64,000 nt of DNA from a virus, in the IMG/VR virus record IMGVR_UViG_3300018421_000015, positions 1-64,000 of that record, one strand, 5' to 3'. Both the position numbers and the translations under genes were made by a program. The notes beneath the pieces were generated by a model. That model had not been told where the DNA came from and did not search any database. It saw only the letters and a program-made list of their open reading frames with translations. Positions 5,969 through 63,665 of the stretch are shown in pieces. Positions within the stretch are counted from its first letter, which is position 1, and each line of letters opens with the position of its first letter.

Positions 5969-8482
5969 ATGCAAAGAATCTACAAACCAGAACTGCGTCT
6001 CCAAGCCACCGATGATGGCCCTCTTCGCGGTGGTGACGGATACCAATTCGGTTTCTATGACTCCGGTGTCATGCGTCAGATTCTCGATAACTATGGTGGA
6101 GAGTACAAGATTTGGACTCTCCCAATCCCTGTTAACAACTACGAATACAGCAAAGCTGTCAAATATGTCAGCAATCCCAAAGTTCAATACGCTCTTGTCG
6201 ATAAAGATAAGATCGTATTCTGTGTGATCGAAAACTCTCCAGGATGGATGTCTGCCCTGAATGAACTCGGTTACGAGGTCTTTTCAGGCGATAAGACCAA
6301 CAAGCGTCTTAAGTCTCATCATCGTCCTACGCTGCTCAACGCAGAGTTTGGCCCCGATGAACTTAAGCTTATGCTTGTTGCTCATGATGAGTTTAGTCGT
6401 TACATCTTCCTTGGACCTAACCCAAATGCACCCGAAGAATACTGTAACCCTGGTGTTGCAGAACGTCTTCTTGACGGTGGCTTTGTGATCTCCCGGCGCA
6501 TTGTTCAACGCGCAGTAGAGAACCTTCCTATGTACCACCCTACTTCATCTATTGATGCAGCAGAGTATTATTATGACCCTCGTATCCGTTCGCGTATTGT
6601 AAACAATCTCTTGAATGCCCATGTTCTTAATGCTCGCATTGAGTTCGAAATGGGCTTTTTGAAGGGTAACTGTATTGTCTCTGACAATCTCCCTGAAGGT
6701 GTCGATATCTTGACTAGCGATGCCAATATCAAGCAGGAGATTAAATACAACAACGGATTTCGTTTCCTTGCAGAGCCACAAGGCCCTAAGGAAAAGGTCA
6801 TTACTGACGACCAGACTGTTATCAACTTTCCCAAGCTATTCCGCAAGAGCGACATGGATATGTGGCTCACCGAGGAATACAAGAAGCAGTATGAAAAAGC
6901 TATCAATGGTGAACTTCTCACCAACTGGCAGTATATTTATCAGCGTAACTGGCGTGATAACGAGAGCCTCGATGACAACGAAGCTCGAGCACGCACACAG
7001 TATGTAGGTTATCGCTGGACTGCAGCAGGGTTTAACATTACTCAATCACCATGGCTTATGGAAACAGTGTCCATCTCCCATGCCAAGCCTCTTGAATATC
7101 GGATTCCTATCCCATGTTCTGTCTACGAACAAGTGATTCCTGAATCATTTATTCGTATGGCAGGATATGACTTTCAAGTAGAGCCAGGTCAGATTCGACG
7201 TCACTCCGAAGTTGGAGTTCATGTCGTTAATGACCTCGATTGGCTAGAGATGTACGAGTCTCATGGTGGTCACGACGAGGACGACTTCTTCAAGTTGTTC
7301 TATCGTGAATTTGAAAGTGGCCCTATTGAAGGTAAGAAAGTTGTAGCTGTTCGTTCACCAAACGGCTTTGGCGAATATTCAATCTTTGACTATGTTGAAG
7401 GTGAATGGTCGCCAACCTGGCTTAAGTCAGATGGAACCGAAGTTAAGTTCCCTAAAGTAAATGGACGTGGCTGGCCTAAGCGTCTCAGTGAAGCAACACT
7501 TTCATCTGAGGTGCACTACAAAGGTCTGCCATCCCTCACTCAGCCAAAAGAAAAGCGAGAAGGACCATATACTCAAGAAGATGTCTTGAGAGATATCCGT
7601 ATTGCTATGGCTGGTGGAAACGTTGGTAGTTTCGTTAATGCATGTATGATGCATTCTTCTGTCATTGGTAAGCATCGTCCACTACAACTCTGCTCGTTGG
7701 AGGATGCCATCGACAAGTGTATCAACCCTGATCACGAACTCGATGTTAAAGCCATTGACCAAGAAGCTCAGAACATGTTCCGCGAAGTTATCGAATATGG
7801 TAAGCCCATTGACCGTAACTTGTGGTACAACCGTGGTAGCCAGCGTTATCTCAAGCAAGGCGAAGAAATTGAATTGTATGATGGTAAAATCACACAACTC
7901 AATAATCTTTGCTACACCCACTTCAATAACTACTGTAATGATATTCGTATGTGGTCGCAAGAGAACGCTCAACCGCCAGAAATTATCCACGAACTCGGTC
8001 GTCGTTTCTACACTTGGGCTCTGCCCATCTTGAGGGACTTCCGTAAAGGTGTGTATAATACAAACTCTTCAGAAGTTACAGCTGCCTCTGGTGCCATTGA
8101 GCGCACCAACTGGGAACATCTTTACCAGCAGCTTGTAAATAAGATTGAGTCTTTCGAACGTATTGAGGACATGTATGACTTCGTCATTGCCTTGTACTCA
8201 GCTACGATTCTCACACCTACCACTCAGGGTAAGATTTCGGATCAAGTTGTAATGAACCGCTTTGTCTTTCCTTATTTGGAGCATGCTCTTCAGTTTTATG
8301 GTATTGCTGCCCGTGCAGTATACAACCAGGAAAAGAAGAAGTTTAACCAAACCTATTCTTGTAGCTGGCAGTGGACCAACGCTGACGGCGAACTGGTTGA
8401 ATACAACGATCCTGTTGAGTTCCAAATGGCCCATTCGAACGATTCACCAATCGATTTCAGAATGCCCGCTCCAACCTCTTGA
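5969..8482 (+). CDS. single-subunit two-barrel (YonO/eukaryotic RdRP-like) RNA polymerase, divergent
   Basis: motifs LDGGFVIS, NAR....FLKG, RIPIP, GGHDEDD, VRSP, NVGSFVNA and DAID match the DG.G.IS, R..G.KG, DxDGD, RxP, G.i.N and AVD motifs of this family. Confidence 0.65.
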   Translation: MQRIYKPELRLQATDDGPLRGGDGYQFGFYDSGVMRQILDNYGGEYKIWTLPIPVNNYEYSKAVKYVSNPKVQYALVDKDKIVFCVIENSPGWMSALNELGYEVFSGDKTNKRLKSHHRPTLLNAEFGPDELKLMLVAHDEFSRYIFLGPNPNAPEEYCNPGVAERLLDGGFVISRRIVQRAVENLPMYHPTSSIDAAEYYYDPRIRSRIVNNLLNAHVLNARIEFEMGFLKGNCIVSDNLPEGVDILTSDANIKQEIKYNNGFRFLAEPQGPKEKVITDDQTVINFPKLFRKSDMDMWLTEEYKKQYEKAINGELLTNWQYIYQRNWRDNESLDDNEARARTQYVGYRWTAAGFNITQSPWLMETVSISHAKPLEYRIPIPCSVYEQVIPESFIRMAGYDFQVEPGQIRRHSEVGVHVVNDLDWLEMYESHGGHDEDDFFKLFYREFESGPIEGKKVVAVRSPNGFGEYSIFDYVEGEWSPTWLKSDGTEVKFPKVNGRGWPKRLSEATLSSEVHYKGLPSLTQPKEKREGPYTQEDVLRDIRIAMAGGNVGSFVNACMMHSSVIGKHRPLQLCSLEDAIDKCINPDHELDVKAIDQEAQNMFREVIEYGKPIDRNLWYNRGSQRYLKQGEEIELYDGKITQLNNLCYTHFNNYCNDIRMWSQENAQPPEIIHELGRRFYTWALPILRDFRKGVYNTNSSEVTAASGAIERTNWEHLYQQLVNKIESFERIEDMYDFVIALYSATILTPTTQGKISDQVVMNRFVFPYLEHALQFYGIAARAVYNQEKKKFNQTYSCSWQWTNADGELVEYNDPVEFQMAHSNDSPIDFRMPAPTS

Positions 8483-8551: not shown

Positions 8552-8800
8552 ATGATCACGCATATTGTTGTCAACCGGAACCATCAAGTAGCTTCCGGTA
8601 AAACAAGAAAATTATTAAACAAACATGGATCCATATTCGAATTACTTAAATACGGATATGAACATTCAGGCCAACGCCAAGAAGAAATACTTATTAAAAG
8701 TATAACTACAGGCTGGTCTGGATGGCTCTCGGTATCGGAGATAACATATGAAGAATACAATGGTCCTCTTAATCGAGAATCATTTTCATCAAATTTATAA
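8552..8800 (+). CDS. hypothetical protein
   Basis: 82 aa ORF, co-oriented. Confidence 0.5.
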   Translation: MITHIVVNRNHQVASGKTRKLLNKHGSIFELLKYGYEHSGQRQEEILIKSITTGWSGWLSVSEITYEEYNGPLNRESFSSNL

Positions 8801-9248
8801 ACGTGTAAGCGGATACGCTTACCACCAAGGTCATCCCTCACCCGAAGATGCAGCAATGGATGCAATATCTCAAGCATTGCGCCATTCCACTAAGTTTGAA
8901 GGTGACCTTGAAAACCTAGTCAGTTACATTATCGGCATTACGCGCTATGATATTATAGATCATCGTCGCAGCATGACTATTAAACCTACTGCTAACGTAT
9001 CAGTTTATGATCTTCAAGATTCTGATGCACCCACTTATTGTGATGAGTATTTTAAGTATCAATATCTTTATAATATAAAGAAAATGATAAAAGCACTCGA
9101 TCAAGCAGAATCAGATGCCATCATTGCTAAATATCTTTATGACATGACAGATGATGAAGCAGCCAGGTTTACCAAGAGAAGCTCTAAGTATCTACGCAGA
9201 GCCAGATCTACTGCATATAAAAAATTGCGTCGTCTTGTGGCGCATTAA
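8748..9248 (+). CDS. ECF-type sigma-70 factor
   Basis: region 2 (PEDAAMDA...SYIIGITRYDIIDHRR) and region 4 HTH (MTDDEAA...RARSTAYKKLR). Confidence 0.75.
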   Translation: MKNTMVLLIENHFHQIYKRVSGYAYHQGHPSPEDAAMDAISQALRHSTKFEGDLENLVSYIIGITRYDIIDHRRSMTIKPTANVSVYDLQDSDAPTYCDEYFKYQYLYNIKKMIKALDQAESDAIIAKYLYDMTDDEAARFTKRSSKYLRRARSTAYKKLRRLVAH

Positions 9249-9349
9249 AAAAAATGCCAATAGGCATCTAATCCCACTACTGTCTAGCTAAAAAGTCACA
9301 AGCCGACTAAACAAAGCTAACCAGTTCCAATTAGAAAGTATATTATATT

Positions 9350-9967
9350 ATGAGAGAAGTAACCCTTAACATCACCGGTCAAGGTGTCATGCTCGTTCAT
9401 AACGAGCGTCTTGCTAACACCATGGATCCTATTGCCAAGGATATGGTAACCATCACCTCGAAGCGCAAGAAGACTGATGAAGACCGAGACGAGCTTGCTC
9501 GCCACGAGTTCTTCGGAGGTCTCTACACCTTCGGTGAAAACCTTGTCCGATCAGCTGATGTCCCTTCTTCTTGGGAGATTTACAACAAGACCGGTATCCC
9601 TTTGTGGAACGTCTTTGTTTCCCTCAAGAACGGAGCTAAGCTTAACCGACTCGGTGCAACCGTTGACCGAGCCGTTCTTCCTTTTGGACCAGATGTCCTT
9701 GAGTTGAAGCACGACGGACCCAACGCTCCACTTGAGATGTGGGAGCAAGGTTTCTATGACCAGCGTTCCGTCAAAGTTTCAACCGCTAAGGTCACTCGTA
9801 CTCGTCCCAAGTACGTCAACTGGTCCACTACTGCGTCATTCCTCGTTGACACCGAACTGTTGAACATGGATGACTTCAACATGATTGCAGTCAACGCAGG
9901 ACGCACATCAGGTCTTGGCACCTACCGTCCTCGCTTCGGACGATTCGAAGTTGAGGTCTGTGCATGA
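9350..9967 (+). CDS. solo Cas7/RAMP-superfamily protein (Vipr-like guide-binding protein)
   Basis: N-terminal strand VTLNITG..MLVH, middle IP.WNV...LKNGA, R.RP, C-terminal G-loop AG..SGLGTYRPRFGRFEV; no cas1/2/3/5/6/8 nearby. Confidence 0.7.
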   Translation: MREVTLNITGQGVMLVHNERLANTMDPIAKDMVTITSKRKKTDEDRDELARHEFFGGLYTFGENLVRSADVPSSWEIYNKTGIPLWNVFVSLKNGAKLNRLGATVDRAVLPFGPDVLELKHDGPNAPLEMWEQGFYDQRSVKVSTAKVTRTRPKYVNWSTTASFLVDTELLNMDDFNMIAVNAGRTSGLGTYRPRFGRFEVEVCA

Positions 9968-10470
9968 CCTACAGTCGACAAGATACTAGTCGACCTTCAA
10001 CGATTCGTGACTACGTCGCCGGTTATCTTAACGAAGCCGGTGACGTAGTCACCTACGAAGAGTTGGCAGCCATGATTGATGTCACCTATCCTACTGGTGA
10101 TGATCATCTTGATCATGAAGTTGTTAAATCCATCAGCAAATCTGTTGCACAAGCCAACAAGTATCTATCAGACGATGGAAGCTGGAAGCATCTTGTTGTT
10201 ATTCCTAACGTTGGTTATCGTGTAGCTACACCATCTGATCTTCGCAACGAAGCTTTAGGTCGTTCTAAACACATCCTTAAAGAGCAGCGTAGAGTTATCA
10301 CAGCAACAGAAAAGGTAACTATTCACCCTGATGCAACTGCTAACCAGCGCACTCAAGCAAACAACAATCTTACACTTCAACACAGTGTTCAAATGATGCT
10401 AAACAAAGCACGGCGTAAAACTCGTCGTGATTGGATAGCACCAGAAGAGCCAATCATTATTGAAGATTGA
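9964..10470 (+). CDS. winged-helix accessory protein coupled to the RAMP gene
   Basis: ATGA overlap with the RAMP gene; GDVVTYEELAA..; LVVIPNVGYRV wing as in OmpR-type wHTH; helical C-terminus. Confidence 0.6.
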   Translation: MTYSRQDTSRPSTIRDYVAGYLNEAGDVVTYEELAAMIDVTYPTGDDHLDHEVVKSISKSVAQANKYLSDDGSWKHLVVIPNVGYRVATPSDLRNEALGRSKHILKEQRRVITATEKVTIHPDATANQRTQANNNLTLQHSVQMMLNKARRKTRRDWIAPEEPIIIED

Positions 10471-10874
10471 TCTTTATGGTCGAGCACGGTACTGTGCGGT
10501 GCCGTTATGTCACGCTCGGTAGTGCAACGTCTGGTTCGGTAGCATATTGCAAGGAGCCTTCGGGCTAAATAAAAAGATCGCTTAAATTCTTTACTGTATG
10601 GCCATGCCCGGTCACGTGCTGTGCGGTGGCGTTCGGTCTCGTAATGTTATGTCGGGTGTGGTAATGCTCGGAGCCTTAGGGCTAAATACTAAGATCGCTT
10701 AAATTCTTCTGTGCTCGGTTTTGCACTGCTATGCGGTATTAGGTTTGGACACGAATTGCGTTGTGATGCTTGGAGCCTTCGGGCTACATAAAAAGATCGC
10801 TTAAATTCTTTGAGGCGTTGCTTGACGATGCTAGGTCTTGTTATGTCGTGCAATGCAAGGAGCCTTAGGGCTAA
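10471..10874 (+). repeat. guide-RNA-like array: 39-nt repeats separating 5-nt-periodic (NGY-NN)n spacers
   Basis: repeat GGAGCCTT(C/A)GGGCTAAATAAAAAGATCGCTTAAATTCTT at 10553-10591, 10670-10708, 10772-10810, partial at 10859-10874; spacers 78, 78, 63, 48 nt. Confidence 0.9.
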
Positions 10875-10914
10875 GCAACATTATTTTTTTTAAATATAGA
10901 ACAAACAAAAACAT

Positions 10915-11214
10915 ATGACCTCTATCACTCTTATCCCAAATGATACATATAATCCTACTTATTCTTCTTATTCTAGTATGTCAACCAGTCGCAAATTCTT
11001 TTACAAGGCTGGTAAACTGGCTGGAAAAACGAAAAGAAACCTACAAAAACCAGAAGTAAAGATCTCTGCAATATTATCTTATTGGAGTCTTGAAACAGTA
11101 GTATGCGCAGTAGCAATAATGTCTATCACTAGTAAGACCATCATTGCTGCTACCTTGCTGCTATACATTTACGGTACGTACGCACTATTTAGTGCCATAT
11201 CAGCATTGGTATAA
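10915..11214 (+). CDS. small membrane protein
   Basis: two C-terminal hydrophobic helices. Confidence 0.55.
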   Translation: MTSITLIPNDTYNPTYSSYSSMSTSRKFFYKAGKLAGKTKRNLQKPEVKISAILSYWSLETVVCAVAIMSITSKTIIAATLLLYIYGTYALFSAISALV

Positions 11215-41974: not shown

Positions 41975-42799
41975 CCACCTATTTGCTATCCATTCCAACA
42001 TTCTAGAGAGCCAATTTCCTTTTCCATCTTTTTTTTCAAGAAGTTCATCTTTATCTCGCTGCTCTTTTTTGTATCTAGATTTTTGATTAATTGGAATAAA
42101 CGTAGATTTAAAACCACGCTGAGAAAGAAGATCGTATATACTACCGTCACCCCAAATGTAATTAATCCCTTTTTGCCTAGGAATAGGTACCACATGCTGC
42201 ATAATTTCACCTATTTCTATAGTAAATTCTTTATCAGTCAATATGTTCAAAACTATATTTGCATGATGGTAATAATCGGTATTTACTAATGCTGGCAAAA
42301 GTGTATAGTTTGGATTAGGTTCCCAAAGTGGAGGAAGGAAAATGGAAGACCACCCTGGTGCCGTTTTAAATAGCCAGGGATTTATTATTTTAATATAATT
42401 TGCTCTCTCAAGTTTTCTTACCCTAGTCACTGGGCATTCTCCACTTTGATGAAAACCAAAACCTTCAACATGAAATTCGTGATTACCAGCAATGTCAAAT
42501 CTACTTTCCCAAAATGAACCATCTGGAGATGGTCTGAAATGCAGTCTTGCCCACATCGGTATATTGAAACCAAGAGATATATAATCAGCTGTCCCAGAAC
42601 ATCTTCTCAATGCACCATCTCCAGAATCTAAATCTTTCCACCAATCTGGCCAATTTCTCCAGTTATCAATTGGCATTACTTCAGGGTCATAGAGCATTTG
42701 TGTATTCGGAGTAATTAAAACCTCACCTGGTTTTACTTTTGGTATATTATAAAAAGAATTAGCTGTCTCTATTTTTAGTTCTCTCAATGGCTTCTCCAT
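41966..42799 (-). CDS. DUF6065/dUTPase-fold-like protein
   Basis: C.G..DY...GF.IP, NPW...TAPGWS.F, VNTD.Y. Confidence 0.55.
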   Translation of the reverse strand: MEKPLRELKIETANSFYNIPKVKPGEVLITPNTQMLYDPEVMPIDNWRNWPDWWKDLDSGDGALRRCSGTADYISLGFNIPMWARLHFRPSPDGSFWESRFDIAGNHEFHVEGFGFHQSGECPVTRVRKLERANYIKIINPWLFKTAPGWSSIFLPPLWEPNPNYTLLPALVNTDYYHHANIVLNILTDKEFTIEIGEIMQHVVPIPRQKGINYIWGDGSIYDLLSQRGFKSTFIPINQKSRYKKEQRDKDELLEKKDGKGNWLSRMLEWIANRWSR

Positions 42800-44267
42800 G
42801 ATCTATCATCTTTAAATTAATTAGATTAGAATTTGTCTCGCTTAGATGTTGAGTTGCTATTCTTCTGGATAGGTGTGCATTCAGCGAAACCGTTGCGGAT
42901 TCACTATTTAGAACTCCTTGACCCTGGGCAACGTGCCAGAAATGAGGTATAAAGAAGAGCTCAAATCCATTAGCAGTTATATCATGATCTTCGGGAGGTC
43001 GTTCTGACCATATTTCCAAAAGCTTCTGTAGCATTAGAGGCTTAGGTCTATTTTGTTGATCTAACCACATCTTAGTGTCATTTCTGTCAGAAATATAATG
43101 TAAACAAATCATACTCAAAGCATTTTCCATAACTTCATTCATTATCTTATTATATTCTCTTATGGAGAATTCTGTCTTTTCGTTAAAGTTTGCTATATAT
43201 GAGCATAGTAATCTGGCCTGCTGTATCCCTATTGATATGGTTGTAGCCTCTAAAGGTTCGATGAAGCTATACGATAGGCCTATTGATACACAGTTTTTTT
43301 GCCAAGGTTCGCTATAATAGCCGGGTCTGAACTTAATGAATCTAGGATTTTCTATTTCAATACCATGAAACTCTTCAGCCTCAATAATCGCCTCCTCTTC
43401 AGTTATATAAGAGGAAGAGAAAACATATCCATTACCTTTTCTTTCTTGAGTTGGTATTTCCCACATCCACCCAGCATTCATGCTGATAGCTCTTGTGTAT
43501 GGGTGAATCTTTCCAAATATGTCTTTATCAGTTTGAAAAACTAGAGCTGTATCACAAGGTAAGTATTCGCTAAATGAATTAAACTCCACATTCTGCATTT
43601 TACTGGACAGCACTCTTGCAAATCCTGTTGCATCTATAAAAAAATCTCCAGATATTTTACTATCGAAACCATTAACTTTTATATATTTTATATGACCATT
43701 TGAACCCTTATTTACAGATTCAATTTCACCTTCAACAAATCTTATGCCCATGTTATTGGCAAAGTTCTTAAGATATTTGTTGAGAAGAAATGTATCAAAA
43801 TGATATTGATTTGTTCCAAGATGAGTTTTATCTGGCTCTGTATCATCTTCACTAATCCCATCTATAACCTGATCCTCAATCATGCCTTTCCAGGAAAGTG
43901 AATTTGTTAAAAGGATTTCATTTTCTAGCAAAAAGCTATAGGTTGCATAGAAGGAGTTTCGTTTAATTCCTGTACCAGAAACAGAATGGATATACTTTGG
44001 CGTATGATTATTCCATCCCTCAAACATGATTCCATATTTGTGGGTGACGCCTGCAAATTTAATCATATCATCTACATTTATTCCAACAAAATCCTGAAAC
44101 CATCTCCAATGTTCCGTAGACCCCTCTCCTACGCCTATAATAGGGCTTTTTTCGGAAAAGCATACGGTTATGTCATATAAGGGGAATGTTTTTTTTAGAA
44201 TTATTGCAGTTGTCAATCCCGATGTACCAGCTCCGGCGATGACGATATGTTTTTGATCTATCTTCAT
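42759..44267 (-). CDS. flavin-dependent tryptophan halogenase family protein
   Basis: GAGTSG, IGVGEGS, FIDATGF, GWMWEIP, FIEPLEAT. Confidence 0.9.
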   Translation of the reverse strand: MKIDQKHIVIAGAGTSGLTTAIILKKTFPLYDITVCFSEKSPIIGVGEGSTEHWRWFQDFVGINVDDMIKFAGVTHKYGIMFEGWNNHTPKYIHSVSGTGIKRNSFYATYSFLLENEILLTNSLSWKGMIEDQVIDGISEDDTEPDKTHLGTNQYHFDTFLLNKYLKNFANNMGIRFVEGEIESVNKGSNGHIKYIKVNGFDSKISGDFFIDATGFARVLSSKMQNVEFNSFSEYLPCDTALVFQTDKDIFGKIHPYTRAISMNAGWMWEIPTQERKGNGYVFSSSYITEEEAIIEAEEFHGIEIENPRFIKFRPGYYSEPWQKNCVSIGLSYSFIEPLEATTISIGIQQARLLCSYIANFNEKTEFSIREYNKIMNEVMENALSMICLHYISDRNDTKMWLDQQNRPKPLMLQKLLEIWSERPPEDHDITANGFELFFIPHFWHVAQGQGVLNSESATVSLNAHLSRRIATQHLSETNSNLINLKMIDHGEAIERTKNRDS

Positions 44268-55908: not shown

Positions 55909-57363
55909 TTAGACTATTCTTACGTGTGGATTAACTTTTTTCCATCTTATTACATCTTTTTCAGAATTTATAAGTGGTTCACCTTTTATGTTTAAACTGG
56001 TATTCAATAATATGGGTATTCCGGTATGATTTTCCCATTCTTTTAAAGTGTGATACAGCCCGGGATGCTGTTGTTCGTTAACTGTTTGAACCCTAGATGT
56101 CCCGTCAACATGTACAACAGACGGTATTTCTTCAGGTCTTTTACACCTGACTGCATATTGCATGTATGGAGAAGGTTTATCAAGATCAAACCAATCACTA
56201 AAAGCATCTTCGGTAACTACGGGTGCAAAAGGTCTAAACATTTCCCTCTTCTTTACCGTGTTCACCTTATCCTTTATGCCTGGATCTCTCGGATCAGCAA
56301 GTATGCTTCTATTACCCAATGCCCTAGGGCCAAACTCTGCCCTACCTGAAGCTACAGCTACGACTGACTTAGATTTAAGCTCTGCTAATATTTTTTCAAC
56401 TGGATACTCTCCAGGAATGTTATGCCCAAGATAAGGACCATTCCAGTTAACATGCTTTTGATCATAGAGCAGAGCTGCACCCAGGCTTGAACCAGCATCA
56501 CCTGGGTTTGGCATAATCCATATATCGTTCCAGTGTTGAATTAATTTTGCATTGGCTGAGCAGTTGAGTGCGCAGCCACCCATATAAACAAGGTTCTTGC
56601 AGCCTGTTAAATTTCTAGCAAACGACATAAATTCTATTAACCTATTCTCAAATACCACCTGAACAGCGGCTGCTATATCAAACTTATCTTGATCTGACCT
56701 TATTTTAAACGGGAAATTATTAACTCCAATGTGAAAGTTTTGAGATTGACTATCAAAAGATGGGAAACTATCGTTTATGTATGAAAAATATCTCCCAGGA
56801 CTGCCAAACCCAGCCATTCCCATAAGAATATATTCCTCTGTTCCAGGAACAAGTCCAAGGAGTTGAGTGTACGCACTATAAAACAGTCCAAAACTAGCGG
56901 GATAATTTATAGAGTATTTTTTTTCTATACTAAAACCATTAGCGTACCAAATGGTAGCAGTTTCAAATTCCCCTATAGCGTCTATGACGACCACTGTTGC
57001 TTCATTAAAGGGGCTTGTATAGTACCCGGCGCACGCATGAGAAAGGTGATGATCTGATTGATACTCCCTTATACCTTTTAGTGAATCAATATTTTTTTTA
57101 TATAATTTATTATATTCACCATTTATTCCACCATATATAAGTCTTCTAATTCTTTTGCTAATTCTGTTTTCATAGTAAGCTATAAAATCTGGAGTACCAT
57201 ACGTAAGAGCATCGTTGATCAAGCCATTGCTTATCTGCCAGTCATTTTTAACTCTAGAGTACCTTTCGGAATGACCAGCAAAAAGTATATCAGAGTCATG
57301 TATCAAAGCAATAGCGGCGTCGTGGCTACAGTCGTTTATCCCCAGTATCATACGGGCATCCAA
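55909..57363 (-). CDS. carbamoyltransferase (NodU/CmcH family)
   Basis: HDAA, HHLSHA, GGCALN, GDAGSSLGA, EFGPRALGNRSIL, KKRE.FRPFAP, LNTSLN; true start probably MILGIN. Confidence 0.95.
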   Translation of the reverse strand: MDARMILGINDCSHDAAIALIHDSDILFAGHSERYSRVKNDWQISNGLINDALTYGTPDFIAYYENRISKRIRRLIYGGINGEYNKLYKKNIDSLKGIREYQSDHHLSHACAGYYTSPFNEATVVVIDAIGEFETATIWYANGFSIEKKYSINYPASFGLFYSAYTQLLGLVPGTEEYILMGMAGFGSPGRYFSYINDSFPSFDSQSQNFHIGVNNFPFKIRSDQDKFDIAAAVQVVFENRLIEFMSFARNLTGCKNLVYMGGCALNCSANAKLIQHWNDIWIMPNPGDAGSSLGAALLYDQKHVNWNGPYLGHNIPGEYPVEKILAELKSKSVVAVASGRAEFGPRALGNRSILADPRDPGIKDKVNTVKKREMFRPFAPVVTEDAFSDWFDLDKPSPYMQYAVRCKRPEEIPSVVHVDGTSRVQTVNEQQHPGLYHTLKEWENHTGIPILLNTSLNIKGEPLINSEKDVIRWKKVNPHVRIV

Positions 57364-60939: not shown

Positions 60940-61763
60940 GCCTCACTCATTATGCTAAATGTATACTCATCGTGTTTGAACCCCCATCTTCCAGTAAACT
61001 TTCTGTCTTCGGAAGAAAAACCACCTAAGACAGCATGGTAGCAGCAGAACGTATCAACAAAGACTAAATCACCTTGACTCCATGATAGGTAGTGAATCAC
61101 TTCAGGGTAGTCGTCCTGCACGGCATCTGACACACCTGGAATATCATCAAAGAATCTTTCTTCCTTTGCGGTCGGCTTTTTGCCATCAACGGAATGAAGA
61201 CAGTCACCCCCTCTTGGGCTAAGCCTTAAGCACATGTCGCCTGTTACCGGATGTTCTGCTATAGCAGATCTGATTTCGCTTGAAAAGGAATTTCCCTTTT
61301 CATCTGGATCACTAGATTTTACTTTAACTTCACATTTCTTTAAAAAATTTAATTGATCCGCTGATAGTAGATTAAGAATGTCGGCACTATCTATAAAAAT
61401 TGTTCTACCACTAGTGGTTTCGCATGAAAAGCTATGCATGTTCCAGCTTCCAATCACAGGAGGAGTACTAGACTGAATATGTTCTAGGTGCCAATCTATT
61501 AAAAGTATATTAGGTTCATTTATTTTTTTAGAGGTAACGTGAGAATGATCTTCATCATAAGAGAAATCTAATATCTTGTTGTGCTCTGGTGCCGGAAAAT
61601 ATCCCAGTCTGGAATGGAACTGTTGAGATATTAGCCTGTGCTGATCTTCTGTAATGTTTATTTTCTTGAACTGTAAAACTTTGTTTTGTTTAAATAAATC
61701 TATATAATAATCTATATTTGACTCTAACTCATCATAAGATGTATCTATCTGAACTATGCGCAT
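60936..61763 (-). CDS. TauD/TfdA family dioxygenase
   Basis: WHLE, G.T.F.D, HPVTG, W..GDL...D....H......R. Confidence 0.8.
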   Translation of the reverse strand: MRIVQIDTSYDELESNIDYYIDLFKQNKVLQFKKINITEDQHRLISQQFHSRLGYFPAPEHNKILDFSYDEDHSHVTSKKINEPNILLIDWHLEHIQSSTPPVIGSWNMHSFSCETTSGRTIFIDSADILNLLSADQLNFLKKCEVKVKSSDPDEKGNSFSSEIRSAIAEHPVTGDMCLRLSPRGGDCLHSVDGKKPTAKEERFFDDIPGVSDAVQDDYPEVIHYLSWSQGDLVFVDTFCCYHAVLGGFSSEDRKFTGRWGFKHDEYTFSIMSEA

Positions 61764-62842
61764 GTTGTACTATATTCCTTTAAGGCTGTAACAATTCTTT
61801 TTACCTGATAAGTTTCAAGAGAAGGATATCCAGGTATACTAACCACTTCCTCGCAGCAGGCGCTGGTATTCTTTAGATGTATTTTATCATTATACCAAGC
61901 TGGCTGCAAATAATCTGGAGTAGGGTAATGGATAGCTGTACTGACACCCGCCTCACTCATGTAATGACAAAAGTCTATTCTATTTTTGACTCTTAAAACA
62001 CTTAAATGAAATATACTAGTGGCGATGTTGCCAACCCAGGGTAAGTTGGGTAAAGAATTTTGATAAATCTCATTTAGTATTTTTCTTTTAGTATTATTGT
62101 TATCTAGTAACTGCAATTTTTCTACTAAACATGCGGCCTGAAACTCATCCATTCTTGAGTTTATTCCATCTTTGGTAGAAGCAACAAATCTATTAACCCA
62201 TCCATACTGTCTTAGGATTCTTACTTTTTCGGCTATTCCATAATCCGAAGTGCAAACTGCCCCTGCGTCACCATTTGATCCAAGATTTTTTGTTGGATAA
62301 AAACTGAAGGCTGAGCAGTCCCCCATAGAGCCAGCCCTTACTCCGTTAATTTCTGAACCGTGAGCTTGTGCACAGTCTTCTATTATCATGATATTACCTG
62401 GAAGATTTTTCCTAATTGCTTCCACGTCAACACATTGACCATATAAGTGAGTTATGATAATAGCTTTAGTTTTATCTGTTAAACTTAAATTAATCATCTC
62501 GGGTTCGATAAGGCAGTGTTCATCAACATCTATATAAATAGGAGTTGCTCCCAGCCTGGATATAGCTAAACTTGAATACCCCCCAGCGTTTGCTACGGTC
62601 ATAACTTCATCGCCAGCAGTAACGCCACATGCAGCTAGACATATTTGAATGGCATCTGTTCCATTTGCTAACCCGCAACAGTATTTAGTTCCAATATAAT
62701 CAGAAAACATAGATTCAAATTGATATACATATTTAGAATTTAAATATAATCCTGAATCTATAATATTAAATATGTTAATCTTTATCTTATCTTCTACGGA
62801 TTGAAAATCTTTCCTAGGATTATGTAACGGTATCAACTCCAT
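61754..62842 (-). CDS. DegT/DnrJ/EryC1/StrS aminotransferase
   Basis: NGTDA, HLYGQ, EDCAQAHG, SFYPTKNLG, NSRMDE; start moved to MELIP. Confidence 0.95.
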   Translation of the reverse strand: MELIPLHNPRKDFQSVEDKIKINIFNIIDSGLYLNSKYVYQFESMFSDYIGTKYCCGLANGTDAIQICLAACGVTAGDEVMTVANAGGYSSLAISRLGATPIYIDVDEHCLIEPEMINLSLTDKTKAIIITHLYGQCVDVEAIRKNLPGNIMIIEDCAQAHGSEINGVRAGSMGDCSAFSFYPTKNLGSNGDAGAVCTSDYGIAEKVRILRQYGWVNRFVASTKDGINSRMDEFQAACLVEKLQLLDNNNTKRKILNEIYQNSLPNLPWVGNIATSIFHLSVLRVKNRIDFCHYMSEAGVSTAIHYPTPDYLQPAWYNDKIHLKNTSACCEEVVSIPGYPSLETYQVKRIVTALKEYSTTCA

Positions 62843-62846
62843 ATAT

Positions 62847-63665
62847 TTAAAGGTTACCCCATTTGTGGTGGGGCACTGTGAATCCGCCCTGAAGCCTAGT
62901 AAAGACTCTTTCGCCATCTTTCCACCCGGAAGAATATGTGTGCAATAAGTTTGTATTATCCCATATGATAGCTTTACCTTCTTGCCATTCCCAGGTGATC
63001 CAATTTGAATTGTCATGAAAGTAGTCATCGATAAACTCTTCATACTCTGACTCCAAGGACATATCTTCAGCAATAACCTTGTGTTTATAGCTAGTGAAAG
63101 CAAAGTTATCTATTCCGGTAACTGGGTGACTTATTATTCCTGGCATGTTTCTTAGGGGCCATCTTTTTCCACCCCAGTCTATACCGTTAACTCCACCAGT
63201 ATCTTTTTCACCGATTAAGCCTACGACATGTATTTGCTTCATCCATTCCCTTATATGATCTGGAGTTTGCTGTAACATTTTTTCTCTGTCTAAGAAAAAA
63301 GTTTTACCATACTCACCTGAACACGTGAAGACGTCCATGACCATGCCTATCAATCGACATACTGCCAGGTTAGGGTTAGCTACTTCAGCGATATCGGAGT
63401 GAATGTTATACCAAATAAAATCTTTATGTTCGTTTTCGTAACCTTCAGGAGCAATCCTCTCTTGTCCATTGTGCTGATTATTTGGACTGACGACAACCTG
63501 ATTTGCTTCGCAATCTGCCATGTGCATTATTAAGGTATTTAATCCAACTTCATTAAATACACTAAATTTGTTGAAGCCAATTATTTTTTCCTCGATAAAT
63601 AAGTTCCTAAGATAATCTATCTTATGAGGTATGTCATCATCTTTTAATTCATCTAAAACTATCAT
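62847..63665 (-). CDS. TauD/TfdA family dioxygenase
   Basis: HSD, GKTFF.D, HPVTG, W.EG...IWDN..LLH......R. Confidence 0.8.
   Translation of the reverse strand: MIVLDELKDDDIPHKIDYLRNLFIEEKIIGFNKFSVFNEVGLNTLIMHMADCEANQVVVSPNNQHNGQERIAPEGYENEHKDFIWYNIHSDIAEVANPNLAVCRLIGMVMDVFTCSGEYGKTFFLDREKMLQQTPDHIREWMKQIHVVGLIGEKDTGGVNGIDWGGKRWPLRNMPGIISHPVTGIDNFAFTSYKHKVIAEDMSLESEYEEFIDDYFHDNSNWITWEWQEGKAIIWDNTNLLHTYSSGWKDGERVFTRLQGGFTVPHHKWGNL

What the first reader, a model, noticed from the sequence alone, without database searches (positions are those of the whole stretch)
9350..10874. Solo Cas7/RAMP-like gene + wHTH gene + array of pentamer-coded guide-like RNAs: candidate non-contiguous RNA-guided (VIPR-like) system
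Seen: four units, each ending in TGC-NN-GGAGCC-TT(C/A)G-GGCT (a 4-bp stem with a UUCG/UUAG loop), followed by a conserved AT-rich linker that is truncated after the last unit. Spacers are 78, 78, 63 and 48 nt, all 5n+3. Each parses perfectly as NN-(triplet-NN)n. Of 51 triplets counted by hand, 48 have G in the middle (the other three have A) and 49 end in a pyrimidine: TGY 23, GGY 16, CGY 6, AGC 1, other 5. The NN positions vary freely. Decoded dinucleotides: U1 AT CG AC AC GC GC TA CA TC AG AA CT TC AG AT AA; U2 AC AT CA CC CA GC GC GG TC CT AA TA CG GT AA TC; U3 TG TC TT AC TA GG TA TT CA AT GT GA TT; U4 GA GT TT GA TA CT TA CG AA AA. The 205-aa upstream protein carries a RAMP-type Gly loop (GLGTYRPRFGRF). 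Known: Cas7-family proteins polymerise on guide RNA with a fixed footprint per subunit. From memory (not verified here), phage 'VIPR' systems with GGY/NN guides have been reported recently. Inference: each subunit grips one NGY triplet and presents an NN pair, so the dinucleotides spell a gapped target, for example in a competing phage or the host. The relaxed BGY scaffold and the dedicated accessory gene suggest a divergent subtype.
Basis: partly seen in the sequence, partly recalled or inferred. Interest (0 to 1): 0.97.

Follow-up and report, generated by a model that had tools for sequence, protein, structure and literature searches.

The report
Phage VIPR guide-RNA locus, variant scaffold
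This is a real example of the VIPR system described in 2026, in which a lone Cas7-like protein, a helper gene and four five-letter-repeat guide RNAs let a phage bind chosen DNA; it belongs to a known class but has an unusual guide scaffold that matches a change in the protein's RNA-reading loop.

Summary
All hand counts were reproduced exactly: 51 triplets, 48 with middle G, 49 ending in a pyrimidine. In the 86-kb record, only this locus scores 7-8 of 8 in the period-5 test.

- The 205-aa protein is a sequence homologue of the solved SUSP1 Vipr (PDB 36pp, E 1.7e-26).
- The 168-aa gene belongs to the vap1 family.
- The array has a conserved 4-bp tail hairpin with one compensatory pair.
- Non-GGY scaffolds (YNNNG, WGT/NN, TGH/NN) are also in print.

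My addition concerns the two SUSP1 residues reported to read scaffold base G1, H17 and D177. They co-vary with that base across 93 Vipr loci: H/D gives G 84%, H/T (this clade) gives U 51% and G 34%, and N/T gives A 88%.

No target was found in the phage's own genome, in IMG/VR half-guide seeds, or in two 22-base scans of 185,579 genomes. Transcription is only weakly hinted, and the host is unknown.

This scan has noted VIPR loci before on other DNA: 735 notes in at least 471 genomes.

Verdict: a new member of a known kind, of moderate interest.

The parts
9350..9967 (+). vipr: 205-aa stand-alone RAMP (Cas7-like) protein. G-loop GLGTYRPRFGRF at residues 188-199. Carries a clade-specific insertion of about 15 aa in a beta-hairpin (about residues 62-84).
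   Evidence: PDB 36pp_D 'SUSP1 Vipr protein', E 1.7e-26. SUSP1 record match E 1e-26. phrog_4652, E 3.4e-38. AF2 pLDDT 94.8. Foldseek top hits are Csm3 and type VII Cas7, E 5e-5. Residue map; insertion.
9964..10470 (+). vap1-like accessory gene (168 aa), overlapping the vipr stop by 4 nt. Winged-helix-like N-terminal domain followed by two long helices.
   Evidence: Iterative profile search over the 88 distinct ORFs that follow vipr homologues: 82 hit, including SUSP1 vap1 (E 1e-38), the wV8 homologue and MakoManhole gp77 'DNA binding protein'. Direct BLASTP is weak (E 0.023 and 2e-4). phrog_5926, E 2e-6. AF2 pLDDT 84.3. Foldseek best E 0.04, to OmpR/PhoB-, GntR- and MarR-type winged helices.
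10476..10566 (+). vrRNA unit 1: 16 NN and 15 scaffold triplets (10476-10552), then tail hairpin GGAGCCTTCGGGCT (10553-10566). The tract starts 5 nt after the vap stop codon.
   Evidence: tail
10567..10591 (+). 25-nt conserved A/U-rich linker 1. It could be a 3' extension of the tail, a processing site or a unit promoter; which one is not resolved.
   Evidence: no Rfam family and no hammerhead at E<=1
10593..10683 (+). vrRNA unit 2: 16 NN and 15 triplets (10593-10669), then tail GGAGCCTTAGGGCT (10670-10683).
10684..10708 (+). linker 2
10710..10785 (+). vrRNA unit 3: 13 NN and 12 triplets (10710-10771), then tail (10772-10785).
10786..10810 (+). linker 3
10812..10872 (+). vrRNA unit 4: 10 NN and 9 triplets (10812-10858), then tail (10859-10872).
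10873..10891 (+). Terminal flank AAGCAACATTA plus T8. Probably the end of the array transcript (inferred).
   Evidence: The same flank ends the first array of L091. The simple terminator scan did not call it.

Best explanation
This is a VIPR (Viral Interference Programmable Repeat) locus of an uncultured phage from salt-marsh and estuary samples: vipr, a vap1-like gene and four vrRNAs.

Mechanism, by homology to the SUSP1 system (inferred, not shown here):
1. The array is transcribed on the + strand.
2. One Vipr protomer binds each pentamer, giving roughly 16, 16, 13 and 10 protomers per guide.
3. The protein sequesters the scaffold triplet and exposes the NN pair.
4. The NN pairs base-pair with double-stranded DNA while skipping every third target base. 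This would give footprints of about 47, 47, 38 and 29 bp.
5. Binding silences transcription of a competing mobile element or another target, and the winged-helix Vap1-like protein assists.

What is particular to this clade:
- The scaffold is (U>G>C)GY rather than GGY.
- The tail is a plain 4-bp tetraloop hairpin rather than the SUSP1 pseudoknot.
- The G-loop aspartate that reads scaffold base G1 in SUSP1 (D177) is a threonine here (T191).

I infer that losing this Asp relaxes position 1 from G to mostly keto bases (U or G), while the contacts to G2 and Y3 are kept.
For: Shown here:
- Full-length sequence homology to the solved SUSP1 Vipr and a RAMP fold.
- vap1-family neighbour.
- Pentamer statistics.
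- Tail hairpin paired in 52 of 52 cells of 13 distinct rows, with pair 9-18 as G-C in 8 rows and C-G in 5.
- Close relatives keep scaffold, tail and gene order but carry entirely different NN strings: L091 (97% Vipr identity), L089 and L090 (84%).
- No self-target in the 86-kb record at skips 0-2. The preprint reports the same for other systems.
- SUSP1 R138, R179 and H17 are conserved and W178 is Y, but D177 is T. The preprint assigns H17 and D177 to G1, R138 and W178 to G2, and R179 to Y3.
- Across 93 distinct Vipr proteins with at least 15 adjacent xGY pentamers, position 1 is G 84% for H/D (68 proteins), G 76% for H/E (12), U 51% and G 34% for H/T (4), and A 88% for N/T (3).
- Contigs from two metatranscriptome runs match the window with no differences across vipr, vap and the unit junctions 10460-10643, 10650-10809 and 10805-10955.
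Against: - No target was found.
  - Half-guide exact seeds in IMG/VR gave 6, 33, 26, 15, 3, 56 and 24 stretches. When extended to the full guide these scored no better than chance: best 25/32, 22/32, 21/26 and 18/20.
  - Two 22-base patterns found 0 matches in genome contigs.
  - Nothing exceeded the shuffled-guide nulls in 168 related loci.
- Transcription is not shown. The RNA-library contigs have depth 2-4, DNA carry-over is possible, and no silent control stretch could be laid.
- SUSP1 K33, whose alanine mutant abolished silencing, is V33 here.
- 5 of 51 triplets break xGY.
- The covariation rests on about three separate T lineages, on a tree whose deep branches are weak.
- One T lineage (L168) still has G at 72%.
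- How unit ends are made (processing or unit promoters) is unknown. No sigma-70-like promoter or hammerhead was found in the linkers.
Confidence: 0.82

Rival explanations
1. Position 1 of the pentamer is not scaffold but part of the guide. With the Asp lost, N4-N5-B1 would pair with three consecutive target bases and only G-Y would be flipped out. That would be a 3-of-5 code reading contiguous targets.
For: Position 1 is the only variable scaffold position (T 24, G 18, C 8, A 1 of 51). The G1-reading Asp is missing.
Against: - A is almost excluded (1 of 51), and U reaches 70-72% in L089 and L090. That looks like a chemical constraint rather than information.
- L089 and L090 share identical NN strings but differ T/G at a position 1, as neutral drift would.
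- Contiguous NNB strings found nothing clearly above shuffles in 2.4 Mb of local sequence. The best was 32/48 against a null maximum of 30, in a set biased by seed-selected loci.
Confidence: 0.05
2. The array is a decaying or non-functional remnant: a degenerate GGY array drifting towards random sequence next to an inactive Vipr.
For: Only 16 of 51 triplets are canonical GGY. D177 and K33, both needed in SUSP1, are replaced. No target was found.
Against: - Positions 2 and 3 are 94% and 96% conserved.
- The same non-G scaffold, intact genes and intact tails are kept in relatives at 84-97% protein identity, while the NN strings turn over completely.
- The tail shows a compensatory pair.
- The residue change recurs together with matching scaffold changes in other lineages.
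Confidence: 0.04
3. The guides are aimed at host functions such as defence genes, or act on RNA, rather than silencing DNA of a competing phage or satellite.
For: No competing-element target was found. Earlier notes of this scan propose defence-gene targets for other VIPR arrays, but those notes are unchecked.
Against: No such match was found here either. The host is unknown. The solved homologue binds double-stranded DNA, and published natural targets are mostly satellites and prophages.
Confidence: 0.12

Closest known systems
Type II VIPR of Escherichia phage SUSP1 and the Pseudomonas fulva prophage (bioRxiv 10.64898/2026.04.26.720920, .720927 and 10.64898/2026.10.15.759431; PDB 36pp)
   Same: - Gene order: vipr, then vap1-like gene, then a downstream vrRNA array.
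- Vipr is 34-36% identical over its full length.
- Pentamer units with hypervariable NN and an invariant 3' tail.
- 9-16 repeats per guide.
- Carried by a virus.
- No self-target.
   Different: - Scaffold is (U/G/C)GY, with only 16 of 51 triplets GGY.
- G-loop D177 is T, W178 is Y, and K33 is V.
- About 15 aa are inserted in a beta-hairpin.
- The tail is a 4-bp UUCG/UUAG hairpin with a 25-nt linker instead of a pseudoknot tail of about 38 nt.
- There is no vrRNA upstream of vipr.
- Units are only 39 nt apart.
- Targets and host are unknown.
Non-canonical VIPR repeat classes in print: YNNNG, NNNGG and NNNNG (720920, methods) and WGT/NN, TGH/NN, GAC/NN and CAC/NN clusters (10.64898/2026.10.21.760802)
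   Same: Five-base period with a partly degenerate fixed trinucleotide next to a Vipr-like fold. The window's unit reads as YNNNG or (T/G/C)GY.
   Different: In the passages I read, those reports give motif classes only. They do not link the motif to the H17 and D177 positions. Their supplementary tables and figures were not available, so this exact clade may already be listed there.
Class 1 CRISPR-Cas Cas7 backbone (Csm3 of type III-A, Cas7 of type VII)
   Same: RAMP/RRM fold with G-loop and thumb; polymerises on guide RNA with a fixed footprint. Foldseek E 5e-5 to 1e-3, TM about 0.4.
   Different: - No CRISPR array: no tandem repeat with a period above 15 in the window.
- No other cas gene among the 9 neighbouring ORFs tested.
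- 5-nt rather than 6-nt register, and guides are gapped.
- Sequence identity is only 8-14%.

Membership tests
VIPR system (type II-like) | Vipr protein: stand-alone RAMP homologous to characterised Vipr | tested here: met
   PDB 36pp_D 'SUSP1 Vipr protein', E 1.7e-26, residues 3-204. 36% identity to the SUSP1 record. RAMP fold.
VIPR system (type II-like) | vrRNA: at least 4 tandem pentamers with a conserved trinucleotide alternating with hypervariable NN | tested here: met
   9-15 triplets per unit, 48/51 with middle G and 49/51 ending in Y, and all 16 dinucleotides used. NN strings differ completely between close relatives.
VIPR system (type II-like) | Canonical GGY (YNNGG) scaffold | tested here: not met
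   Only 16 of 51 triplets are GGY; position 1 is T 24, G 18, C 8, A 1. The unit fits the published alternative YNNNG class and resembles WGT/TGH.
VIPR system (type II-like) | Residues that grip the scaffold (SUSP1 H17, R138, D177, W178, R179) | tested here: inconclusive
   H17, R138 and R179 are kept and W178 is Y, but D177 is T. The change co-varies with the scaffold. Binding itself was not tested.
VIPR system (type II-like) | Invariant structured 3' tail after the repeat tract | tested here: met
   14-nt hairpin present in all 4 units. 100% paired across 13 distinct rows, with one compensatory pair. It is not the pseudoknot of the SUSP1 clade.
VIPR system (type II-like) | Adjacent vap gene; vap1 is a predicted DNA-binding protein in type II | tested here: met
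   The profile search joins it to SUSP1 vap1. The winged-helix-like fold is only weakly supported.
VIPR system (type II-like) | Encoded by a virus or provirus in a minimal locus without CRISPR array or other cas genes | tested here: met
   IMG/VR virus record. Phage helicase, tRNAs and PHROG hits. No CRISPR-like tandem repeat. No PADLOC Cas hit in 9 ORFs.
VIPR system (type II-like) | vrRNAs expressed as RNAs of about 100 nt that co-purify with Vipr | not testable with these tools
   The only data are assembled contigs from two metatranscriptome runs covering the array at depth 2-4. These show no RNA ends and cannot exclude DNA.
VIPR system (type II-like) | Targets obey the 1-nt skip rule (NN x NN x) | tested here: inconclusive
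   No match above chance in the phage's own genome, 168 related loci, IMG/VR seeds or genome contigs. Exact-seed searches miss targets with scattered mismatches.
VIPR system (type II-like) | Formal type assignment (types I-VII by Vipr phylogeny, array architecture and vap) | not testable with these tools
   The type tables are in supplements that were closed. The placement 'type II-like' rests on the vap1 partner and on homology to SUSP1.
Class 1 CRISPR-Cas (Cas7) | CRISPR repeat-spacer array and further cas genes | tested here: not met

The most novel reading that the evidence does not exclude
Two Vipr residues (SUSP1 H17 and D177) may act as a small code for scaffold base 1: H/D reads G, H/T reads U or G, N/T reads A, and S/D is relaxed. 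Phage lineages would then retune this code.

The result would be Vipr-vrRNA pairs that are partly orthogonal. The window's U-rich guides could not be loaded by rivals' GGY-specific Viprs. This would be a move in the 'guns for hire' contest, in which satellites and phages steal each other's Vipr with solo vrRNAs.

If true, scaffold base 1 could be engineered to run several independent VIPR channels in one cell.
Probability: 0.3. Interest if true: 0.6.

Novelty: new member of a known kind. Interest (0 to 1): 0.4.

Why it matters
VIPR is a class of programmable DNA binders first described in 2026, and every well-read natural variant helps define what the protein tolerates.

This locus and its relatives give a natural experiment on scaffold recognition. 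The aspartate that reads the first guanine in the solved structure is replaced, and the guides change at exactly that base. The same happens in at least one other lineage, with a different outcome (A).

That gives a directly testable rule for making orthogonal or relaxed Vipr-guide pairs. It may also explain why non-GGY arrays exist.

The locus extends VIPR to a large uncultured estuarine phage that has its own sigma-like factor and a large ORF of unknown family. Beyond these points it is an ordinary instance of a published class.

Tried and rejected
Searches that found nothing useful
- Megablast of the locus against 50,697 phage records: no match.
- tblastn of the neighbouring 837-aa ORF against the same phage records: no match.
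- Pfam: nothing for vipr or vap.
- Rfam at E<=1 over 9200-11000: only a chance miRNA row, and no hammerhead.
- Sigma-70 and terminator scan: no more sites than in shuffles, and none in the linkers.

The linker as a phage promoter: rejected as a general promoter motif, because it occurs only in the array within the 86 kb. A unit-specific promoter is not excluded.

Pseudoknot between the tail and the linker: looked at by eye only. The candidate 5' arm includes the variable NN before the tail, so there is no support.

Target search
- Own record, skips 0-3: only the self-identity at skip 3.
- 168 loci, 868 kb: nothing above the null.
- Relatives' guides against the window's record: nothing above the null.
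- Seven IMG/VR scans with 16-base half-guide seeds, one of them an 8-NN seed from unit 4. These gave 163 stretches in all.
  - Rescoring was chance-like.
  - The unit-4 hits fall in different genes, strands and codon registers.
  - One group of 4 contigs matches 17/20 in frame in an ORF of about 170 aa. This is not above expectation for 24 seeds, so I dropped it.
- Two genome-contig scans with 22 specified bases: 0 hits.
- These scans need 8 or 11 perfect consecutive NN, so targets with scattered mismatches (the published threshold is 80% NN identity) would be missed.
- The metagenome collection could not be scanned with guides.

Host: not resolved.
- The best cultured Vipr relative is a Gordonia phage at 41.5%.
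- The helicase's best full-length hits are a Tunturiibacter phage at 37% and actinophages at 28-30%.

RNA runs X21 and X22 hold 90-99% relatives, not this phage. Parts of the stretch without cover in X19 and X20 say nothing.

The tree is the quick tree. The careful search did not finish in 288 s.

Rows dropped
- One search left out L002 (a copy of the window) and loci whose array string duplicated another. Of 134 distinct loci, 24 had fewer than 15 pentamers and were left out of the tables.
- Searches kept 116 distinct proteins with a match of more than 180 query residues. 93 of these had at least 15 pentamers.

Papers and what I saw of each
- 10.64898/2026.04.26.720920: outline, all of Results, methods sections 20 and 26, and passages.
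- 10.64898/2026.04.26.720927: outline, abstract, sections 5 and 6, and passages.
- 10.64898/2026.10.15.759431: outline, abstract, and sections 8 and 17.
- 10.64898/2026.10.21.760802: passages only.
- Supplements were closed. Type tables, figs S16-S17 and S10 may already show this clade or the residue link.
- That the H17/D177-scaffold link is not in print rests only on two searches and the passages.
Full report
**What is there**

Window 9350-10891 (+ strand) holds two overlapping genes and a four-unit array. The genes are a 205-aa ORF (9350-9967) and a 168-aa ORF (9964-10470).

Each array unit is a tract of NN-(triplet-NN)n ending in the 14-nt motif GGAGCC-TT(C/A)G-GGCT. This motif occurs four times and nowhere else in the window. 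Units 1-3 are followed by a 25-nt A/T-rich linker found only here in the whole 86,299-base record.

- 51 triplets: 48 with G in the middle, 3 with A, and 49 ending in a pyrimidine.
- By type: TGY 23, GGY 16, CGY 6, AGY 1, other 5.
- 55 dinucleotides that use all 16 possibilities.

Against the record's composition, the G column has a binomial probability of 2.5e-32. A strand-blind period-5 scan gives 7-8 of 8 only at this locus. Shuffles reach 5-7.

One detail is wrong in the finding. The flank after unit 4 is not a shortened linker. It is a separate sequence ending in T8, and it also closes an array in relative L091.

**What it is**

VIPR systems consist of a Vipr protein, vap genes and vrRNAs of alternating GGY/NN. 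They were described in bioRxiv 10.64898/2026.04.26.720920 (Results read), structurally in 10.64898/2026.04.26.720927 (sections 5-6) and biologically in 10.64898/2026.10.15.759431 (sections 8 and 17).

The 205-aa protein is a plain sequence homologue of the reference protein:
- phmmer against PDB sequences returns 36pp_D, 'SUSP1 Vipr protein', E 1.7e-26 over residues 3-204.
- A search of the SUSP1 record finds its vipr at 36% identity, E 1e-26.
- tblastn finds 131 phage records, 130 of them covering at least 80% of the protein. The best is Gordonia phage MakoManhole at 41.5%.
- An AlphaFold model (pLDDT 94.8) matches Csm3 and type VII Cas7 best in a PDB copy that predates the Vipr entries (E 5e-5, TM about 0.4).

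The 168-aa gene:
- It has only weak direct similarity to SUSP1 vap1 (E 0.023) and to the MakoManhole 'DNA binding protein' (E 2e-4).
- An iterative profile search over the 88 distinct ORFs that follow vipr homologues in my loci joins 82 of them, including SUSP1 vap1 at E 1e-38.
- Its model (pLDDT 84.3) has a helix-strand-helix-helix-hairpin N-terminal domain and two long helices.
- Foldseek gives only weak rows (best E 0.04), to OmpR/PhoB-, GntR- and MarR-type winged helices. 'wHTH' is therefore plausible but not firm.

No CRISPR-like repeat and no PADLOC Cas model is nearby. The record is an IMG/VR virus contig, with CheckV completeness of 41%. It carries tRNAs and phage genes.

**Relatives**

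Metagenome contigs L089 and L090 (84% Vipr identity) and L091 (97%) keep the same order of vipr, vap and array, and the same kind of scaffold. Their NN strings are entirely different. This is the pattern expected of guides.

Their tails provide covariation. The window and L091 have GG-AGCC-loop-GGCU. L089 and L090 have GG-(G/A)CCC-loop-GGGU. On 13 distinct rows all 52 cells pair, and pair 9-18 is G-C in 8 rows and C-G in 5.

The tail is a simple tetraloop hairpin, unlike the pseudoknot tail of the SUSP1 clade that I read in the SUSP1 record. L091 has two units, an inserted ORF, then two more units. An RNA-library contig of a relative skips 198 nt of the array. Array content therefore turns over quickly.

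**The scaffold and the G-loop**

The structural preprint states that G1 of GGY is read by H17 and D177, G2 by R138 and W178, and Y3 by a pocket that includes R179.

The SUSP1 numbering maps cleanly onto my alignment:

| SUSP1 residue | Window residue | Status |
|---|---|---|
| H17 | H17 | kept |
| R138 | R152 | kept |
| R179 | R193 | kept |
| W178 | Y192 | changed |
| D177 | T191 | changed |
| K33 | V33 | changed |

I then asked whether this matters across all fetched loci. I used a detector that requires only G-Y at positions 2-3, so it is blind to position 1. For the 93 distinct proteins with at least 15 adjacent pentamers, the position-1 base by residue pair (SUSP1 position 17 / 177) is:

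| Residue pair | Proteins | Position-1 base |
|---|---|---|
| H/D | 68 | G 84% |
| H/E | 12 | G 76% |
| N/D | 3 | G 71% |
| S/D | 3 | G 43%, T 24%, A 21% |
| H/T | 4 | T 51%, G 34%, C 9%, A 5% |
| N/T | 3 | A 88% |

The T-bearing proteins fall into three groups:
- the window clade;
- L168, where G is 72% and T 24%;
- the L079 clade, about 30% identical, with AGY/NN staggered arrays and an HNH gene.

On a quick tree these groups are interspersed with D-bearing rows. The deep branches are weak, so the number of independent changes (about three) is an estimate.

Proteins at 51-55% identity to the window's (P0004-P0006) have D or E at this position and lack the 15-aa insertion. The T and the insertion therefore mark a small subclade.

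My reading is an inference. An Asp carboxylate is a classic reader of guanine N1-H and N2-H. Without it, the pocket accepts the two keto bases U and G (82% of positions here) and still disfavours A.

Non-GGY repeats are already reported: YNNNG and others in 720920 methods, and WGT/NN and TGH/NN in 10.64898/2026.10.21.760802 (passages). I did not see the residue link in what I could read, but supplements were closed.

**How it most likely works**

Shown here: homology, the array grammar, the conserved tail, guide turnover, absence of self-targets, and protein-scaffold covariation.

Inferred from the SUSP1 work: one protomer binds per pentamer, NN pairs with DNA while skipping every third base, transcription is silenced, and Vap1 helps.

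Not shown:
- Expression. Contigs from two metatranscriptome runs are identical to the window and bridge unit junctions, but at depth 2-4 and with DNA carry-over possible.
- How unit ends are formed.
- What is targeted.

**Targets**

None of the four guides matches the phage's own 86 kb at skips 0-2 above shuffled-guide nulls. None matches the 168 related loci, and the relatives' guides do not match this phage.

Seven IMG/VR scans with exact 16-base half-guide seeds returned 6, 33, 26, 15, 3, 56 and 24 stretches. Extended to the whole guide, the best were 25/32, 22/32, 21/26 and 18/20. That is what chance gives after a 16-base seed, and the hits lay in unrelated genes and codon registers.

Two 22-base patterns found nothing in 185,579 species genomes. 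These searches cannot see targets with scattered mismatches.

The host is unknown.

**Verdict**

The system is a new member of a published class, type II-like by its vap1 partner, with a non-canonical scaffold and a simple tail.

The residue-scaffold covariation is the one element that may be new and is directly testable.

This scan has already noted VIPR loci on other DNA many times: 735 notes in at least 471 genomes.

Noticed in passing
L001 1640-1700 and 2885-3150 (Gordonia phage MakoManhole); L168 4660-4710: The vrRNA tails in these GGY-type loci look like a tRNA acceptor/T-arm minihelix (GGTTCGAnTCC loop inside a long stem), quite unlike the window's hairpin or the SUSP1 pseudoknot. One copy also sits upstream of vipr. 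ARAGORN calls no tRNA in L001. The resemblance suggests RNase P/Z-type processing.
   Followed up: partly
L079 3580-4120 (also L080, L081, L085): A Vipr lineage with N at SUSP1 position 17 and T at position 177. It has AGY/NN units (A at position 1 in 77 of 83) separated by TACATCCAAAC, directly after vipr with no vap1, and followed by an HNH-motif gene.
   Followed up: partly
L091 806-1904: A 97%-identical relative has a strong hairpin plus T-run between vap and unit 1. It then has two units, an inserted ORF (about 1103-1660) and two further units with the same tail. Arrays are therefore split and reshuffled between strains. An RNA-library contig of a relative also skips 10688-10887.
   Followed up: no
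window 5969-8482 and 8748-9248: An 837-aa ORF has no match in 50,697 phage records, PHROGs or PADLOC. It lies just upstream of a 166-aa sigma-70-like gene (weak Pfam r2/r4 hits; phrog_1740, E 1e-8).
   Followed up: no
window 9530-9605 (Vipr residues about 62-84): An insertion of about 15 aa lengthens a beta-hairpin just before helix 1, where SUSP1 E71 and M72 form the Y3 pocket. It is found only in the T191 subclade (window, P0001-P0003) and not in the 51-55% relatives.
   Followed up: no
L309, L314, L316, L329 (IMG/VR contigs): The first 8 NN of unit 4 match, in frame and with the skip at the wobble base, the peptide DVLDYLYR near the start of an ORF of about 170 aa shared by four contigs (17 of 20 informative bases). 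With 24 seed hits in all, this is at chance level.
   Followed up: partly
L145, L149, L050: A Vipr clade with S at SUSP1 position 17, D kept and a 'CDYR' G-loop has a relaxed position 1 (G 43%, T 24%, A 21%, C 12% of 94 pentamers). This suggests H17 also contributes to reading base 1.
   Followed up: no
window 42759-44267, 55909-57363, 61754-63103 (- strand): The phage carries tryptophan-halogenase-like, carbamoyltransferase-like and aminotransferase-like genes (PHROG hits, E 8e-94, 1e-106 and 2e-38). This may be a small-molecule or nucleotide-sugar modification cluster.
   Followed up: no
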